Shown here: piece by piece, positions 27,568 to 60,126 of the stretch
How the letters are laid out: each line of letters begins with the position of its first letter
How positions within the stretch are numbered: position 1 is the stretch's first letter
NCBI GenBank assembly: GCA_050506795.1
Contig: JBJHCF010000009.1
Span: 1 to 64,000, forward strand
Direction of reading: 5' to 3'
Source: Opitutia bacterium
GTDB taxonomy: Bacteria > Verrucomicrobiota > Verrucomicrobiia > Opitutales > T3Sed10-336
DNA: 64,000 bases
The notes under the pieces: model-generated
What the model saw: the letters and a program-made list of their open reading frames with translations, nothing else
The model's database searches: none
Told to the model about the DNA's origin: nothing
Made by a program: the position numbers and the translations under genes

Positions 27568-27636
27568 ACGCGGTCATCGGCGGAAGCGCCGACACTACGA
27601 TCAAGCGCCTTAACCGCGTGGCATTCGGACTAGGCC

Positions 27637-27870
27637 GAATGGCAAGGATAGGCCATTGATCGAAGCAGCGTGGTTCTACTTTGGCAAGATTACCAAAACC
27701 ACGCCCGGTTTAAAACATTGCTTAACGGTGAAGGTTCTCACACGGAGCCACGGATCTCACGGAGGCGGGTCCTGTAAAAATCTCCGTGACTTTGTGCCTC
27801 CGTGTGAGCCCAATTTCCGCTGTATTTTTTGCTTCATCGAACGATACACCGCCTTAACCGAGTACCATTC
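27637..27870. mobile_element. MITE-like element with IS4-like ends
   Basis: Starts GAATGGC, ends CTTAACCGAGTACCATTC; flanked by GGACTAGGCC / GGACTAGGTC; internal palindrome shared with 28451-28611 and 54826-54932. Confidence 0.65.
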
Positions 27871-27873
27871 GGA

Positions 27874-28326
27874 CTAGGTCCGTTCGAAATTTCTGAGGAA
27901 TTCGTCCTTCCAACGGTAGCCCTCAAGAAGCGTCGGATCGTCGTCGCCCAGTATTCGGCGGGCGGCGTACAGGGCTTCCACCGAGGCCAGACCGGTTTCC
28001 GGATCCTGGAAGAGCTTGCTTTTGCGCGGGTAAGCCGTGACGAGGCCGGCGGGCAGGCTGCGGCGAACCGGTTCGCCGGTCAAACACCCTTCCAAATCGG
28101 CGGCGTAACGCCAGGTGCCGTCGAGCAGCAACAACGGCCGCTCGGCGTCGGCCGAAGTCAAAACCGGCGCGTCAGGAGTCAGCAGCGTGTAACCGCCGGC
28201 ATCAAACCGGAAAGCACCGGTCGCCTTGTAAAACGTGATATCCGGGCGCCCGTGCAAAGGCACCAGACTGCACTTGGACAGCCGTTCCTTTGGATGGCGG
28301 ATCACCACGGTTTTTATGGCGGACAT
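27874..28326 (-). CDS. DTW/Tsr3-like aminocarboxypropyltransferase-fold protein
   Basis: RHPKERLSKCSL, LLLLDGTW, RRSLP, GLASVEAL. Confidence 0.7.
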   Translation of the reverse strand: MSAIKTVVIRHPKERLSKCSLVPLHGRPDITFYKATGAFRFDAGGYTLLTPDAPVLTSADAERPLLLLDGTWRYAADLEGCLTGEPVRRSLPAGLVTAYPRKSKLFQDPETGLASVEALYAARRILGDDDPTLLEGYRWKDEFLRNFERT

Positions 28327-28408
28327 GTCTTCAGAAAATCGGCGTGCCGGGGTGATTGACAACTTGCAAATTCCCGGAAACCGCGTTCGCATTGCCGCCA
28401 CCGCTCAA

Positions 28409-28431
28409 CGCCGTCTAAAGAGCGGCGCTAC
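28409..28431 (-). repeat. Solo GTAG-family REP
   Basis: Reverse complement GTAGCGCCGCTCTTTAGACGGCG resembles the REP units at 50175-50497. Confidence 0.55.
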
Positions 28432-28450
28432 TTTCCACCAGCAATAACAA

Positions 28451-28611
28451 AGGTTCTCACACGGAGTCACCCCCCTCGACGAGCTCAGGCCGGTGAGAGC
28501 TCACGGAGCCGGGTCCGGCTGAACTCTCCGTGTCCGTGCCTCCGTGTGAGCCCAATTTCCGCTGTATTTTTTGCTTCATCAAACGATGAACCGCCCAACC
28601 GAGTGCCATTC
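28451..28611. repeat. Second, left-truncated copy of the MITE-like element
   Basis: AGGTTCTCACACGGAG...CCTCCGTGTGAGCCCAATTTCCGCTGTATTTTTTGCTTCATC...AACCGAGTGCCATTC matches 27732-27870. Confidence 0.75.
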
Positions 28612-42630: not shown

Positions 42631-42732
42631 GGAGGGCCATGCTCCCGTACGACCGGATTCGCCGGGAACGCGGGCATCCTGCCCGCACCGGCGGCGCGGG
42701 AGCGCCGCCCTCCACGCTGGAGGCCATGCTCC
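42631..42732. repeat. REP-like palindromic repeat (empty group II intron target)
   Basis: GGAGGGCCATGCTCCCG...GGGAGCGCCGCCCTCC; 42669-42712 is identical to the reverse complement of 57638-57681. Confidence 0.85.
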
Positions 42733-49974: not shown

Positions 49975-50173
49975 CGGGGAGACTGGATGAATTAGGAATT
50001 GAGAAGAGAGAATTATGAATGCTGTACTGGCAGCCAGGTGAACCGTTGATTTGTGTTAGTTATTACTAATAAGCAATTTGCAGAACACGCGATATAGGTC
50101 GTGGAAGTTCGATGAACGGAACCGAGGCTAACCACGAAGGACATGAAGGGGGACTGAAGGGCGAGGAGCTTTC

Positions 50174-50497
50174 CGTAGCGCCCAGCTTTAGCGGGCGATT
50201 TGTGAGGCGTGCGAACGGCCGGTACCGGTGAAGAAAACTCCGTCTAAAGCACGGAGCTACGGGTACCGGAATTCGTAGCGCCCAGCTTTAGCGGGCGTTT
50301 TGTGCGGTGTGTGGACGATGGTTCCCGGGAAGGGGTCTCCGGCTGAAGCACTGAGCTACGGGTACCGGAATTCGTAGCGCCCAGCTTTAGGCGGGCGTTT
50401 TGTGCGGTGTGCGAACGGCCGGTACCGGTGAAGAAAACTCCGGCTAAAGCACGGAGCTACGGGTGCCGGATTTCGTAGCGCCCAGCTTTAGCGGGCG
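50174..50497. repeat. BIME-like tandem array of GTAG-family REPs (about 100-bp period)
   Basis: CGTAGCGCCCAGCTTTAG(G)CGGGCG at 50174, 50274, 50373 and 50474, alternating with inverted CTCCGKCTRAAGCACKGAGCTAC. Confidence 0.85.
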
Positions 50498-50688
50498 AAC
50501 CGCCGCGTCGGTTTTGCAACTGTCGGCCGGAAGCGTCCGCACGCGTCCGACATAATGGGTAGCGCGACGGAGGAAGCGGACACACTACGGGGCTCTGGTC
50601 TCTCGGAATCATTGACTCTTCATTCATAATTCTTCATTCATACTTTGATTGATGGCCCGGCCATTCTCGTGTTGAAGAAGACCTGAGA

Positions 50689-54390: not shown

Positions 54391-54568
54391 TCTGCACCGC
54401 AGAGACGGGAAGGGCGCAGAGGATCGGAATCGAGACCGATGAATTGCCAGTATCGGCTGTTTCAACCTCAATGGCAGCTCAAGCGGTCGATCTCACTCAT
54501 GCTCTGAATGGAGATTTGATCGAGTCCACAGTCTTACCTCTGCGCTCTTCCATTCTCTGCGGTGCAGA
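54391..54568. repeat. Long-range intergenic inverted repeat
   Basis: TCTGCACCGCAGAG...GCGCAGAGG (54391-54422) pairs with CCTCTGCGC...CTCTGCGGTGCAGA (54537-54568). Confidence 0.7.
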
Positions 54569-54825
54569 TACTATTCCTTTCAGCAGTAACTTGATCGTAA
54601 CAGTTGCCTCGTTCCCGTATCGGCAAAAATAAGCGTCATACTAGGCCGAAAATTTTGCTCAAAAAACAGAAATTTGCGGTTTGTAGTACAGATGCCAAAG
54701 TGGATCGACCGGGAGCGATTCTTCGAATGCGCGGAATGTACCGCAGAACCCGGAGTCTGTCCGGCTTGGCAGACGGACAGTTGATCGTTCTATTTTGGTG
54801 TGAGGTTAACGAATCATCCAAGTTA

Positions 54826-54932
54826 GCGGAATTTGGTCTCACACGGAGGCACAGAGACACGGAGAGTTTGACCGGACCCGCCTCCGTGAGCTCTCTCCGG
54901 CCTGAGCTCGTCGAGGGCGTGCCTCCGTGTGA
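54826..54932 (-). repeat. Third, inverted copy of the MITE internal palindrome
   Basis: Near-exact reverse complement of about 28455-28562. Confidence 0.75.
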
Positions 54933-54964: not shown

Positions 54965-55375
54965 TTACCTCCAGTCTTCCAGTCTCAGTCCTGGGAAGTC
55001 CTGGAAGTGCCGGACATTCAAAGTGGCGAGAACTAGCCCGTGGTGAAGGGCCGTGGCGGCGATCAGCAGGTCGAAATCCGCCCGGGGGAGTCCCGCGGCT
55101 TCCTGTTCGGCTTTAAGCCGGGCAAAGACGGCGGCAACCCCTTTGTCCACGGCCAGTACCGTGAGACGATCCTCCAGATAGTCGCGGTACTCCCGCCAGA
55201 GACGGTCTGATTGTTTTTTCTCCAGACCGTAAAGCAGTTCGGCTTCCGCTATGGCGGGGATTGCCAGAGCCGAATCGCCCAGTTCCCGCCAACGCCGAAT
55301 CACCACTGGCAGCGGGTGAGGGCGCAGCCGCTGGGAGTAGACGCTGGTATCAAGCAGGTGAGTGATGGTTGCCAT
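54965..55375 (-). CDS. vapC: VapC PIN-domain toxin
   Basis: LLDTS, EAELLYG, DLLIAATA, TLNVRHF. Confidence 0.9.
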   Translation of the reverse strand: MATITHLLDTSVYSQRLRPHPLPVVIRRWRELGDSALAIPAIAEAELLYGLEKKQSDRLWREYRDYLEDRLTVLAVDKGVAAVFARLKAEQEAAGLPRADFDLLIAATALHHGLVLATLNVRHFQDFPGLRLEDWR

Positions 55376-55624
55376 TTAGAACGGGGTGGGGCGGTTGCGG
55401 GCGGGATTCCTGGCCGGCAGCTCCAGCTCTTCCGTAATCGGCCCGTAACGGGCCTGGGCCTCCTCCACCGTATCCCAGACCGACCCGGAGGACTCGTCCA
55501 CCGGCACTATTCTCACCAGGGGCTTTCCCCTCCGCGTAACCGTGCACGGCTCACCGCTCCGGGCCACCTGGTCGCAAATCTCGGACAGACGATTCTTGGC
55601 ATCAAACAGACCAAAGGACTTCAC
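55376..55624 (-). CDS. Phd/YefM-family antitoxin
   Basis: GTG start; FDAKNRLSEI, VTRRGKPLVRIVP; abuts vapC. Confidence 0.88.
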   Translation of the reverse strand: MKSFGLFDAKNRLSEICDQVARSGEPCTVTRRGKPLVRIVPVDESSGSVWDTVEEAQARYGPITEELELPARNPARNRPTPF

Positions 55625-55659
55625 AAAAGACAATCTAGCTGTCTGGCTGTTTTTGTCAA
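55625..55659 (-). promoter_or_regulatory. Sigma70-type promoter/operator of TA module 1
   Basis: TTGACA-N16-TAGATT-N7-GTG; AGACA...TGTCT palindrome over the -10. Confidence 0.6.
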
Positions 55660-55761
55660 TCCTGAGTGTGGACGATTCGTTATCGGAAGCAGGGTAGCGA
55701 ATGGCACGGTTAGGGCGGTGGATCGAAGGCGCATAGCTAAATCGCATCGGCCGTTCCCCTG

Positions 55762-57637
55762 ATAGGGGTAGGGACGACGCATTGGTTTGCGTCGCCCCTC
55801 CCTCCGAACCGGACTGGCGGATCTCTCGCATCCGGCTCTCCAGTCAGCGCATTTTGCTCCGTTATGGAGACTGGAACTCCTTCACACGGGCTTCTTCCAG
55901 GCAGAAGAGCCCGAGCTCTGCAAAGTAGCGGTTGGGCCAACGTTGATGATCCACGCCTCGGGCTCTCCCACGAAGCTTCTTTCGCTTGCGCAGGATCGCT
56001 CGCAGACGTCCTCGCACCCAGCCATCCATCTCTCCAAGGGCTGCCGGTTCGGCTTGTTTGAAGTAGCCATACCAGCCTTTCAGGCTCGGATTGATTTTCT
56101 GAATGATTGCGTTCATGCACTCTCCGTTGGTCCGTTTGGTCAGGGGCTTGAGACGGGCTTTGAGCCTCTGGCGGCTTTTCGGCCGGATGTAGCGCGCGAT
56201 GCGGCCGCGTTTGTTTCGCCAAAACCGGTAGCCGAGGAAGTCGAAGTGACTCCCCGATTCGGTCAGCGCCACAACCCGCGTCTTTTGCGGGTGCAACTGC
56301 AATCCCGCCTCTCTCATCCAGCTTTCAACTTCAGCCAGCGCTCGTTGCGCCGTCTCCGCGTCGCGGCACAGGACGACCATGTCGTCGGCATACCGCACCA
56401 TTTCGTAGCCCTTTTCCTTCAGCAGATGATCCAGAGGATTGAGGTAAATGTTCGCCAAGAGCGGGCTGATGATTCCGCCTTGCGGCGTGCCTTCCTCCCT
56501 TTCGGCCTCCACTTCCATTCCCTCCATCACGCCTGCTTTCAGGAATCCTTCGATCATTCCCAGCACACGCCTGTCGGCGATGCGTCCCCCGACCAGCTTC
56601 ATCAGCCGGTCGTGGGGAATGGCGTCGAAGTAACCTTTGATGCCGATGTCCACGACGTGCGAATAGCCGCTTTTGAGCAGCGTGTCCACCTGCCGCAGAG
56701 CATCTTTGCATCCGCGTCCGGGACGGAATCCGTAACTAGCGGGAGAAAACTCGCTCTCGAAGATCGGTTCGATGACCATCCTCAAGGCGGTTTGCACCAC
56801 CCGGTCGCGCACCGTCGGGATTCCCAACGGACGTTTCTCCGGGCTGCCCGGTTTTGGAATCCAAACCCGTTTGATCGACTGGGGTTGGTAGGCGTTTCGT
56901 TCGATTTGCTCTTTCACGGCGAGCAACCGAGTTTGGCTGTCTTTTGCGAAACGTTTTACCGTAATGCCGTCCACGCCACAAGCCCCTGCGTTGGAATGCA
57001 CCTTTGCCCAAGCCAATTCAAGGGTCGTCGCCTTTGAGACTTTGTCGATAAGGCTGAACCACTTGTTTCCTTTGACCCCCTTGTCGAGGGCTTCCAGCAT
57101 CTTCTCGCTCCATATCCGGCGTTCGGCCTTATGGCGTTCCCACAAGTCCTCTTCTCCTTGTTTATCCGTTTCCGAAACTGACGGAGATTTTCCTTCGCTT
57201 TCCATGGTCATGGAAGATTCGCCTTCCTGCCGTCCTTGGCTCCACCGGCGTTACCCGGCTTCATCACTACTATGACGGCTCTGACTTCTGACGGCGTTCG
57301 CTTCCCGAACTCCTGATTCCGCCAGATCTCCATACGTCCACATGATACCTTCCCCGCGTTCTCACACCAACCACCCGCCGACGCCCATGACTGCATCCTT
57401 GGCGTCGGTCCTGACGCGTCATGGTCGCTCCTTCCGGAGCAGGCTTCGCCAATCCCTCGCAGGCTCGCCGCTTCAGTAGGCCAAATCGTGTTCACTCTCG
57501 TTTGGGACCGCAGGTCCGCTTCCGGCTGCTCCCCACCCCGCCTCACGGCGACGCAGTTGCCTTCAGCTGATCTTCCCCTTGACGCTTCGGAAGATTTTGG
57601 ACTTTCACCATTCGATTTCATGTATGTGTATTCGCAC
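55762..57637 (-). mobile_element. Complete group II intron (1876 nt)
   Basis: 5' GTGCG at 57637; D5 GAGCCGGATGCG...GTCCGGTTC (55806-55838); D6 ending CCCTACCCCTAT; internal RT ORF. Confidence 0.92.
55862..57211 (-). CDS. ltrA: Group II intron reverse transcriptase/maturase (no endonuclease domain)
   Basis: RPLGIPTVRDRVVQ, SYGFRP, GTPQGGIISPLLANIYL, RYADD, FDFLG, domain X GWYGYF. Confidence 0.95.
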   Translation of the reverse strand: MTMESEGKSPSVSETDKQGEEDLWERHKAERRIWSEKMLEALDKGVKGNKWFSLIDKVSKATTLELAWAKVHSNAGACGVDGITVKRFAKDSQTRLLAVKEQIERNAYQPQSIKRVWIPKPGSPEKRPLGIPTVRDRVVQTALRMVIEPIFESEFSPASYGFRPGRGCKDALRQVDTLLKSGYSHVVDIGIKGYFDAIPHDRLMKLVGGRIADRRVLGMIEGFLKAGVMEGMEVEAEREEGTPQGGIISPLLANIYLNPLDHLLKEKGYEMVRYADDMVVLCRDAETAQRALAEVESWMREAGLQLHPQKTRVVALTESGSHFDFLGYRFWRNKRGRIARYIRPKSRQRLKARLKPLTKRTNGECMNAIIQKINPSLKGWYGYFKQAEPAALGEMDGWVRGRLRAILRKRKKLRGRARGVDHQRWPNRYFAELGLFCLEEARVKEFQSP

Positions 57638-57716
57638 GAGGGCGGCGCTCCCGCGCCGCCGGTGCGGGCAGGATGCCCGCGCTCCCAACCCGGCGGCGCG
57701 GGAGCATGGCCCTCCA
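57638..57716. repeat. REP-like palindrome forming the intron 5' exon
   Basis: Long hairpin; same family as 42631-42713. Confidence 0.85.
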
Positions 57717-57864
57717 GGCGAATTGCCGATGCGATATTTGCGAGCATTGATCGGCATGTCTTACCGAAGATTCTCAAATCCAAAATCTGCGATCTGAAAA
57801 GCGTTTTCAATCCGAAGGCAGGTTTCCTCTGGATTCCGGCGGTGTTGTGTGATACTGCAGGACA

Positions 57865-59478: not shown

Positions 59479-59752
59479 GAAGGTCGTTAATATCCAGAAC
59501 GCCAAAACCCACCTCTCCCGGTTGCTGGAGGACGTGGTTGCGGGAGAGGAGGTCGTGATTGCCAAAGCGGGCAAACCCATGGCTCGGCTTACGGCGTACG
59601 AAGAGACCCGCAAACCGCGGACCCTTGGGCTCTTGCGGGGAACGGTCACCGAAGCCCCCGACTGCTGGGAAGCGGATCCGGAAATCGAAGCGTGGTTTTA
59701 CGGCGCCGACGACCAATCGTCGCAGGATCGCGTCGCGGAAGACCGGAAATGA
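59477..59752 (+). CDS. Phd/YefM-family antitoxin
   Basis: VNIQNAKTHLSRLL..GEEVVIAKAGKPMARL. Confidence 0.9.
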   Translation: MKVVNIQNAKTHLSRLLEDVVAGEEVVIAKAGKPMARLTAYEETRKPRTLGLLRGTVTEAPDCWEADPEIEAWFYGADDQSSQDRVAEDRK

Positions 59753-60126
59753 ACCTCCTTCTCGATTCCCATGCCTTGCTTTGGGCTCTGCACAATCCCG
59801 GAGAAATGCGGTCCGCCGCCCGCCAGGCCTTGGAGAATCCGGAAAACCTGGTGTTTTTCAGCGCCGGGGCGGTGTGGGAGCTTGAGTTGAAAGCGGCCAA
59901 AGGAAAACTGGTGTTGCCGAAAGGATGGCTGGAGGCGGCGGGGGAGACCGGTTTTCGGGAGTTGCCGGTGACTGCGGAGGACGCCGCCGCCAGCGCCCGG
60001 CTGCCCTGGCATCACAACGATCCCTTCGATCGCCTTTTCATCGCCAAGGCCGCACGGCGAGGTTGGAGCCTGGCCACCCGCGACGCCTTCTCTCCCCGGT
60101 ACGCGGTCCGTATACTGCCGGTATAA
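59749..60126 (+). CDS. vapC: VapC PIN-domain toxin
   Basis: MNLLLDSHALLW, WE, HNDPFDR, TRD; ATGA overlap with the antitoxin. Confidence 0.9.
   Translation: MNLLLDSHALLWALHNPGEMRSAARQALENPENLVFFSAGAVWELELKAAKGKLVLPKGWLEAAGETGFRELPVTAEDAAASARLPWHHNDPFDRLFIAKAARRGWSLATRDAFSPRYAVRILPV

What the first reader, a model, noticed from the sequence alone, without database searches (positions are those of the whole stretch)
55762..57716. Group II intron homing into a REP-like palindrome, with an empty target in the same window
Seen: the 44 nt before the intron 5' GTGCG (57638-57681, minus strand) are identical to 42669-42712. The empty copy reads …GCCGCCCTC|CA, and removing the intron restores …GCCGCCCTC|CA, which fixes both boundaries. 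A loop in intron domain I (GCC-TGCGAGGGATT-GGC; GAGGG at 57454-57458) is complementary to the exon end CCCTC, giving a candidate EBS1/IBS1 pair. D5 has an AGC triad, unlike typical IIC introns, and the RT lacks an En domain. Established: IIC introns target terminator or attC hairpins, and others target IS elements or conserved genes. Inference: this intron exploits a multicopy REP family as a safe-harbour target pool.
Basis: partly seen in the sequence, partly recalled or inferred. Interest (0 to 1): 0.7.

Follow-up and report, generated by a model that had tools for sequence, protein, structure and literature searches.

The report
Group II intron targeting palindromic repeats
A self-splicing mobile intron sits at one exact spot of a small palindromic repeat found about a hundred times in this genome, and most of its relatives with a readable landing site sit at the matching spot of their own hosts' hairpins, which points to a hairpin-plus-five-base landing rule outside the one intron class known for it.

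Summary
Observation confirmed. A 1876-nt group II intron (RT/maturase, no endonuclease, AGC triad) sits 3 nt behind a hairpin of a multicopy extragenic repeat (99 hits). GAGGG is EBS1: over 57 distinct sites of relatives it co-varies with the last five exon bases (4.61 of 5 pairs against 2.43 shuffled). EBS3 was found, no EBS2 signal. 46 of 57 sites follow a hairpin (controls 9-16%). In 26 of 33 close relatives the site reads GTAG, GTGG or GGAG on the other strand, so the cut falls inside a REP-type tag. The target was multicopy in its host in 7 of 8 tests. The RT clade is distinct from class C and holds an intron that Miura 2022 lists as 'Unclassified'. Corrections: the 42.7-kb copy is a sibling repeat, not the pre-insertion allele; this RT has Gly where 124 of 124 others have Asp, so this copy is probably immobile; some relatives use other hairpins. 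Mechanism and safe-harbour benefit are inferred. The scan noted this behaviour before on other DNA; my literature searches found no description of it as a targeting rule.

The parts
55762..57637 (-). Group II intron, 1876 nt, GTGCG...AT, single copy in the assembly
   Evidence: both ends match those of relatives
55862..57211 (-). Intron-encoded RT/maturase, 449 aa, YADD present, no endonuclease domain
   Evidence: TIGR04416 397 bits, cut-off 300; model closest to GsI-IIC RT, Z 34.2, rmsd 2.5, 387 aligned
56642..56644 (-). Codon 190, Gly, at a column that is Asp in 124 of 124 other RTs; probably the first catalytic aspartate, so probably an inactive RT
   Evidence: contigs of two other runs carry the Asp codon, the probable source run carries the window's letter; catalytic role recalled, not from a call
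57454..57458 (-). EBS1 (GAGGG) in an 11-nt loop; preceded by the conserved C at 57459 (probable delta)
57371..57371 (-). EBS3 (G, intron nt 267), pairs with the first base of the 3' exon
   Evidence: 44 of 47 Watson-Crick, with four pair types
55806..55838 (-). Domain V, 33 nt, AGC triad
55764..55805 (-). Domain VI with bulged A at 55769
57638..57642 (-). IBS1 (CCCTC), overlapping the foot of the hairpin by 2 nt
57641..57660 (-). Target hairpin, 8-bp stem and 4-nt loop, ending 3 nt before the intron; GGAG-tagged on the other strand
57638..57720 (.). Composite (BIME-like) repeat of three GGAG-tagged palindromes forming the 5' exon
55736..55761 (-). 3' exon: IBS3 (C at 55761) and a repeat-family flank that elsewhere follows the sister arm
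42631..42714 (+). Intron-free sibling copy of the repeat (potential target, not the pre-insertion allele)

Best explanation
This is a member of an endonuclease-less, non-class-C lineage of group II introns that picks landing sites by a DNA hairpin plus a short RNA guide. Shown: a 5-nt EBS1 pairs with the last five exon bases, EBS3 pairs with the first base behind the site, no EBS2 pairing is detectable, and the site lies mostly 2-4 nt behind a hairpin whose sequence differs from host to host. In the Verrucomicrobiota-rich subclade the hairpins are REP-type repeats: EBS1 positions 1-3 plus EBS3 read the complement of the repeat's four-base tag (GGAG here; GTAG, GTGG, GCAG elsewhere) and positions 4-5 read the foot of the stem. 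Inferred, by analogy with IIC introns: the intron-protein particle binds the hairpin extruded in single-stranded DNA at the replication fork, the hairpin standing in for the missing EBS2-IBS2 helix; the RNA reverse-splices into the strand complementary to the tag and is copied using a nascent strand as primer. The repeats give a large extragenic target pool (156 intergenic hairpin-plus-CCCTCC sites here), and EBS1 is retuned when the intron meets a new repeat family. This particular copy is probably stranded by an Asp-to-Gly change in its RT, which fits 1 occupied site.
For: EBS1-IBS1: 42 of 57 sites 5/5 Watson-Crick, mean 4.61 against 2.43 (max 2.95 in 10,000 shuffles); one site per distinct EBS1 (27): 4.52 against 2.07. 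No intron column co-varies with exon positions -6 to -30 above 0.20 excess, against 0.32-0.67 for four EBS1 columns. Hairpin within 8 nt in 46 of 57 sites; controls 903 of 5700 shuffles, 102 of 672 upstream windows, 4 of 43 mirror-image 3' exons; stem ends 2-4 nt before the site in 40 of 46. 38 close sites fall into 27 exon families under 75% alike. Tag: of 33 sites with RT at least 57% identical and both flanks, 15 GGAG, 7 GTAG, 4 GTGG, 4 GCAG, 3 other. Target copy number in its own host: 8, 24, 42, 83, 69, 23, 148 and 1; reversed-pattern controls 0 in those hosts. Genome G061 holds 7 copies of two variants (83-84% alike) whose different EBS1s match different repeat families, and two introns 98% alike sit behind unlike hairpins. 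Repeat is extragenic: 7 of 66 copies in long frames against 1536 of 2000 random places. Clade 100/100, apart from class C references.
Against: No experiment. 11 of 57 sites have no hairpin by my rule, including the closest relative with a readable exon (L102, 83%). The L017 hairpin is single-copy in G064; the same pattern found nothing in G061, where L015 sits behind a similar hairpin; G063 gave only its own site when searched with the G062 pattern. Only 8 of 57 sites were tested for copy number, chosen by eye for clear hairpins. A betaproteobacterial subclade, left out of the 57 because its 5' end reads GTACG, uses hairpins that look like IS ends or short stems, not tagged repeats. The 57 sites are not independent. 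The stem overlaps IBS1, unlike the spacer-then-IBS1 layout of the IIC structure, so the analogy is imperfect. No RAYT gene flanked by this repeat as its own was found among 16 Y1 loci. Strand bias was not tested.
Confidence: 0.72

Rival explanations
1. Survivor bias: the intron needs only the six-base match (IBS1 plus IBS3) and inserts widely; copies in genes are purged, and repeats are simply a large share of the intergenic matches.
For: EBS2 is absent, so base-pairing specificity is low. In this genome 156 of 488 intergenic CCCTC|C sites already have a hairpin (32%, crude ORF map).
Against: 46 of 57 (81%) is far above 32% (binomial p 5e-14, overstated because sites are related and the baseline is one genome). 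Stem ends cluster at 2-4 nt. EBS1 itself is tuned to the repeat tags.
Confidence: 0.13
2. General hairpin or terminator targeting as in IIC; REP-type repeats are hit only because they are the commonest hairpins, with no special relation to the tag.
For: Miura 2022 reports that about half of g6, U1 and U2 introns lie just after predicted terminators (passages); the pBN3 member of this clade is 'Unclassified' there. The betaproteobacterial subclade uses untagged hairpins. Tobes and Pareja 2006 list 2 of 9 P. putida group II intron copies in REPs (table passage).
Against: None of the 33 close sites ends in a T run; 30 of 33 cut in the same register of a G-N-(A/G)-G tag. EBS1 follows the tag, with different variants on different repeat families in one genome. 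This rival shares the mechanism with the best explanation and differs in how specialised it is.
Confidence: 0.12
3. Sequence-specific homing: the protein reads the repeat's sequence in duplex DNA and the palindrome's structure is incidental.
For: Each variant mostly sits in one repeat family. The stem overlaps IBS1, so part of it must melt.
Against: Hairpin sequences are unrelated across hosts (27 families in 38 sites), and introns 98% alike use unlike hairpins in one genome.
Confidence: 0.03

Closest known systems
Class C (IIC) group II introns, e.g. GsI-IIC, E. rectale intron, IIC-attC introns
   Same: No endonuclease, no EBS2, short EBS1 plus EBS3, insertion just behind a DNA stem-loop, compact 5' RNA (about 426 nt before the ORF). 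Best solved-structure match by sequence (247 bits) and by fold.
   Different: AGC triad; 5-nt contiguous EBS1; stem ends 2-4 nt before the site and overlaps IBS1, where the IIC structure has a spacer and a 4-nt IBS1; targets are tagged repeats without a T run; RT outside the class C clade; the sequence alignment to IIC proteins stops at residue 412-418. Chung 2022 calls the stem-loop motif exclusive to IIC (passage).
'Unclassified' (U1-U3) introns of Miura et al. 2022 (PMC8919778)
   Same: The Paraburkholderia pBN3 intron, labelled Unclassified in their table, falls inside this clade. They report about half of g6/U1/U2 introns just after predicted terminators.
   Different: No hit for 'palindrom' or 'verrucomicrob' in their main text; no EBS analysis seen. 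Which U cluster this is I could not see (supplementary figures not held as text).
Class F (g2-g5, IIF) introns
   Same: En-less RT of similar size; EBS2 dispensable for splicing in vitro (Nagy 2013, passages). A sister relation is not rejected (p-AU 0.41).
   Different: Class F has a co-varying EBS2-IBS2 by that paper; none is detected here. F references and F-like loci mostly lack the hairpin and lie outside the clade.
REP-targeting insertion sequences (ISPa11, ISPpu9, ISPpu10, ISPsy8, IS1397; Tobes and Pareja 2006, PMC1525189)
   Same: Use of a multicopy extragenic palindrome as a target pool.
   Different: DNA transposases, not an RNA-guided retroelement. Their table has a group II intron at only 2 of 9 copies.

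Membership tests
Group II intron | Domains V and VI, GUGYG...AY ends, RT/maturase in the intron | tested here: met
Group II intron | EBS1-IBS1 and EBS3-IBS3 pairing | tested here: met
   co-variation over 57 and 47 sites
Group II intron | Splicing and mobility | not testable with these tools
   only contigs available; no joint that skips the intron among those shown
Class C (IIC) | RT inside the class C clade | tested here: not met
   clade 100/100 excludes the two class C references, themselves 100/99; a sister relation is not rejected, p-AU 0.093
Class C (IIC) | CGC triad and shortened D5 (feature recalled; seen in the genome's other intron fragment L182) | tested here: not met
   AGC triad, 33-nt D5
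Class C (IIC) | No EBS2 | tested here: met
   no co-variation with exon -6 to -30; absence of signal, not a structure
Class C (IIC) | Insertion behind a stem-loop | tested here: met
   46 of 57 sites against 9-16% controls
Class C (IIC) | Stem-loop is a terminator or attC site | tested here: not met
   no T run before the site; no terminator-like match at the site; the target is a dispersed repeat
Class F (g2-g5) | RT groups with F references | tested here: inconclusive
   not nested among them; deep branches unresolved, p-AU 0.41 for a joint clade; only g2 and g3 references
Class F (g2-g5) | Co-varying EBS2-IBS2 | tested here: not met
   against the statement in PMC3753933
Miura 2022 'Unclassified' types | Groups with an RT so labelled | tested here: met
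   pBN3 intron inside the clade; U1, U2 or U3 not determined; a second Unclassified reference (L202) lies outside
REP elements (the target) | Short palindrome, many copies, extragenic, clustered in inverted units | tested here: met
REP elements (the target) | GT[AG]G tag at the hairpin foot (PMC6006769) | tested here: not met
   tag is GGAG in this genome; canonical GTAG/GTGG in 11 of 33 close relatives' sites. Hence 'REP-type'
REP elements (the target) | Cognate RAYT gene flanked by the repeat | tested here: inconclusive
   16 Y1 loci: repeat units flank only C36, where an IS200-type gene sits in a cassette inserted into the repeat, plus one unit near C35; assembly is in 82 contigs

The most novel reading that the evidence does not exclude
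A fourth target specificity for bacterial group II introns, beside homing sites, terminators and attC: a lineage outside class C that reads REP-type repeats directly, using EBS1 plus EBS3 as the complement of the repeat's four-base tag and the hairpin as a stand-in for EBS2, and that retunes EBS1 to each host's repeat families, even two in one genome. It would show that structure-based targeting is not exclusive to IIC, being either ancestral or evolved twice.
Probability: 0.55. Interest if true: 0.75.

Novelty: new variant of a known kind. Interest (0 to 1): 0.6.

Why it matters
The review and structure papers I read treat hairpin recognition as a class C peculiarity and list three target types (passages). 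A second lineage with an AGC triad, no EBS2 and a natural series of 27 EBS1 variants makes the proposal that EBS2 evolved to mimic the target hairpin directly testable. It also adds retroelements to the mobile elements that live on REP-type repeats, and offers a compact, naturally retargeted system with many intergenic landing sites in a phylum with few genetic tools (the last point is my judgement).

Tried and rejected
Other copies in the genome: none; two unrelated RT fragments at 32-34%. A second insertion at C13:6757 (repeat followed by GTGCC) is not an intron: no match to the intron there, and the sequence runs on into an ordinary gene. Relatives in 60 related genomes: 15 have some RT match, 3 belong to the clade by tree (L159, L160, L161), and none gave a 5' exon long enough to score. 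RAYT link: L001 looked like a RAYT locus but is an IS200-type gene (NF033573 77.6 bits over cut-off 55; NF047646 24.1 under 80) in a cassette inserted into the repeat. Reads: contigs only; no empty-allele or splice joint among those shown; one RNA run covers parts of a related intron but cannot show transcription. MFE fold of domains I-III alone was uninformative (z -0.71). First boundary script had a slicing error and was redone. Row losses: of 125 loci with RT at least 45%, 63 had a 5' end found and 57 were distinct with at least 30 nt of exon; the 62 others are mostly truncated contigs, plus the GTACG subclade. The fold search adds nothing to class assignment. I found no paper passage naming the first catalytic aspartate. 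Two intended class references (one C, one E) were not in the collection. Similarity search of earlier findings by sequence gave nothing.

Full report
1. The observation. The sequence facts hold: 44 identical bases, GAGGG at 57458-57454, CA behind both junctions. The intron runs 57637-55762 on the minus strand (1876 nt). Rfam finds domains V-VI. D5 is 33 nt with an AGC triad and D6 has a bulged A. The 449-aa ORF has RT and maturase domains and no endonuclease hit. It lies between a xylulokinase-like gene pointing away from it and a phd/vapC pair; no gene is interrupted. There is one copy in the assembly.

2. The target. The last 20 exon bases have 99 matches within 3 mismatches (42 exact); 65 of 72 ending GCCCTC continue with CA. 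In a census of hairpins with a G[TG][AG]G foot this hairpin is the commonest single sequence (39 copies; its sister arm 34). Copies avoid long reading frames (7 of 66, against 1536 of 2000 random places). It is a composite of inverted palindromes, each with a GGAG foot. Published REPs carry GT[AG]G at the foot (PMC6006769, passages); GTAG repeats are reported in Verrucomicrobia, and GGAG does not occur in that paper's text (PMC3733652, passages). So I call it REP-type. No cognate RAYT was found among 16 Y1 loci. The 3' exon is the flank that elsewhere follows the sister arm (28 of 40 matches; none after the arm seen here). The boundary is thus confirmed, but the filled site is a chimeric copy and the 42.7-kb copy is a sibling. 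Recombination between two intron copies or slippage between repeat arms could each explain this; I cannot tell which. Contigs of the probable source run carry the same 5' junction (30 nt) and 3' junction (40 nt) without differences.

3. Relatives. Two scans gave 145 loci, the closest mostly Verrucomicrobiota. Of 125 loci with RT at least 45% identical, 63 had a recognisable 5' end and 57 were distinct with enough exon. EBS1: the five bases aligned to GAGGG take 27 different sequences and pair with the last five exon bases: 42 of 57 perfectly, mean 4.61 against 2.43 when shuffled among introns. The loop is 11 nt in 53 of 56 parsed, closed by a 3-bp stem with some compensatory changes. A scan of every column against exon positions -30 to +1 ranks four EBS1 columns first, then intron nt 267 with the first 3' exon base (EBS3; 44 of 47), and shows nothing like an EBS2. 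Hairpins: 46 of 57 sites have a stem of at least 6 bp ending within 8 nt, 40 of them at 2-4 nt; controls give 16%, 15% and 9%. Among 33 close sites with both flanks the junction reads GGAG 15, GTAG 7, GTGG 4, GCAG 4, other 3 on the opposite strand. Eight hand-picked targets were counted in their own hosts: 8, 24, 42, 83, 69, 23, 148 and 1 copies. The 148-copy target begins CGTC, the other tagged superfamily of PMC3733652. Genome G061 has seven copies of two variants with different EBS1s on different repeat families. Against: 11 sites lack a hairpin, among them the 83% relative L102; one target is single-copy; and a betaproteobacterial subclade starting GTACG uses hairpins that look like IS ends (my recall) or short stems. 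Labelled references of other classes mostly lack such a hairpin (2 weak ones among 15 boundary rows, some misplaced), while two Niallia introns outside the tree sit behind terminator-like hairpins.

4. Class. With references labelled in Toro 2013 (PMC3552965: parts 1-3 of 4 and Table S2 read) and Miura 2022 (PMC8919778: passages, section 7, parts of one table), the RT falls in a clade of full support that holds the 'Unclassified' pBN3 intron and excludes A, B, C, D, E, CL1, ML, g1, g2 and g3 references (one or two each). Its sister is unresolved: neither class C (p-AU 0.093) nor the F-like group (0.41) is rejected. It works like IIC but is not a member.

5. This copy. Residue 190 is Gly where all 124 other RTs have Asp; the neighbouring Asp varies. 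From recall this is the first of the three catalytic aspartates (PMC12337344 states that there are three, passage, without numbering it). Contigs of runs X2 and X3 carry the Asp codon; X1, possibly the source, does not. A dead RT would explain one occupied site among 156 candidate sites. Inferred, not shown.

6. Mechanism. Shown: EBS1, EBS3, lack of EBS2 signal, fixed position behind unrelated hairpins, multicopy targets. Inferred from the IIC structure (PMC10190682, passages) and from priming at the fork by En-less introns (PMC4424553, passages): hairpin capture on single-stranded DNA, reverse splicing into the strand complementary to the tag, copying from a nascent strand. The geometry differs from IIC, as the stem overlaps IBS1, so its foot must melt. 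Survivor bias is the main rival; the intergenic baseline of 32% in this genome is well under 81%, but kin are not independent.

7. What is known. Zimmerly and Semper list three target types; Chung 2022 calls the stem-loop exclusive to IIC; Waldern 2020 treats only class C as terminator-seeking (PMC7306698, passages). Partial precedents: Miura 2022 (about half of g6/U1/U2 near terminators), Tobes and Pareja 2006 (2 of 9 P. putida intron copies in REPs; one table passage) and Sonbol 2021 (one IIB intron behind an attC site; PMC7923331, passages). Searches that found no description of REP-directed group II introns: (listings only for papers not named here); the library lacks most subscription journals, and Miura's supplementary figures were not visible. 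Earlier notes of this scan report the same behaviour on other genomes; they are unchecked AI notes, and my reading was written before I saw them.

8. Verdict. Real, well supported by comparison, untested at the bench. New variant of a known kind; interest 0.6.

Noticed in passing
G000 C15:70974-71771, C16:12501-12962, C23:24380-24710, C36:49756-50509 (L001): A second mobile element with 15-nt inverted ends and a 6-bp duplication sits in the hairpin loop of the same repeat at four places (331-798 nt), plus a lone end at C23:11245; the C36 copy carries an IS200-type transposase gene.
   Followed up: partly
window 54965-55659: phd/vapC toxin-antitoxin pair directly behind the intron, with a sigma-70-like promoter at 55659-55632; a second antitoxin/PIN-like pair appears near 59500-60126 (not scanned).
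   Followed up: partly
L090 (around 110-230): Two related introns appear to sit back to back at the two ends of one inverted repeat pair.
   Followed up: no
L141-L143, L128, L050, L122, L154, L193, L203: Betaproteobacterial subclade with a GTACG 5' end and EBS1 ACTAA or ATCCT/TACCT, behind hairpins that resemble IS ends; on pBN3 two copies lie in tandem next to integrase and IS91 genes.
   Followed up: partly
L056, L057: Niallia introns (RT about 43% in part) with a GTGCGC start directly behind T-tailed terminator-like hairpins; class not determined.
   Followed up: no
window 50171-50498; 27592-28595; 54391-54917: Other repeat families: a 100-nt tandem repeat with GTAG-tagged palindromes, and dispersed inverted repeats shared between 27.7-28.6, 52.1 and 54.8 kb.
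   Followed up: no
G000 C3:12-728 (L182) and C31:2522-3677 (L176): Two unrelated group II intron remnants; the C3 one has a class C-like D5, the C31 one has stops.
   Followed up: no
L078: The 94% relative has the same EBS1 and a C behind its 3' end, but a different 3' flank and a short disturbed stretch right after the catalytic-motif Asp; its 5' exon is off the contig.
   Followed up: partly
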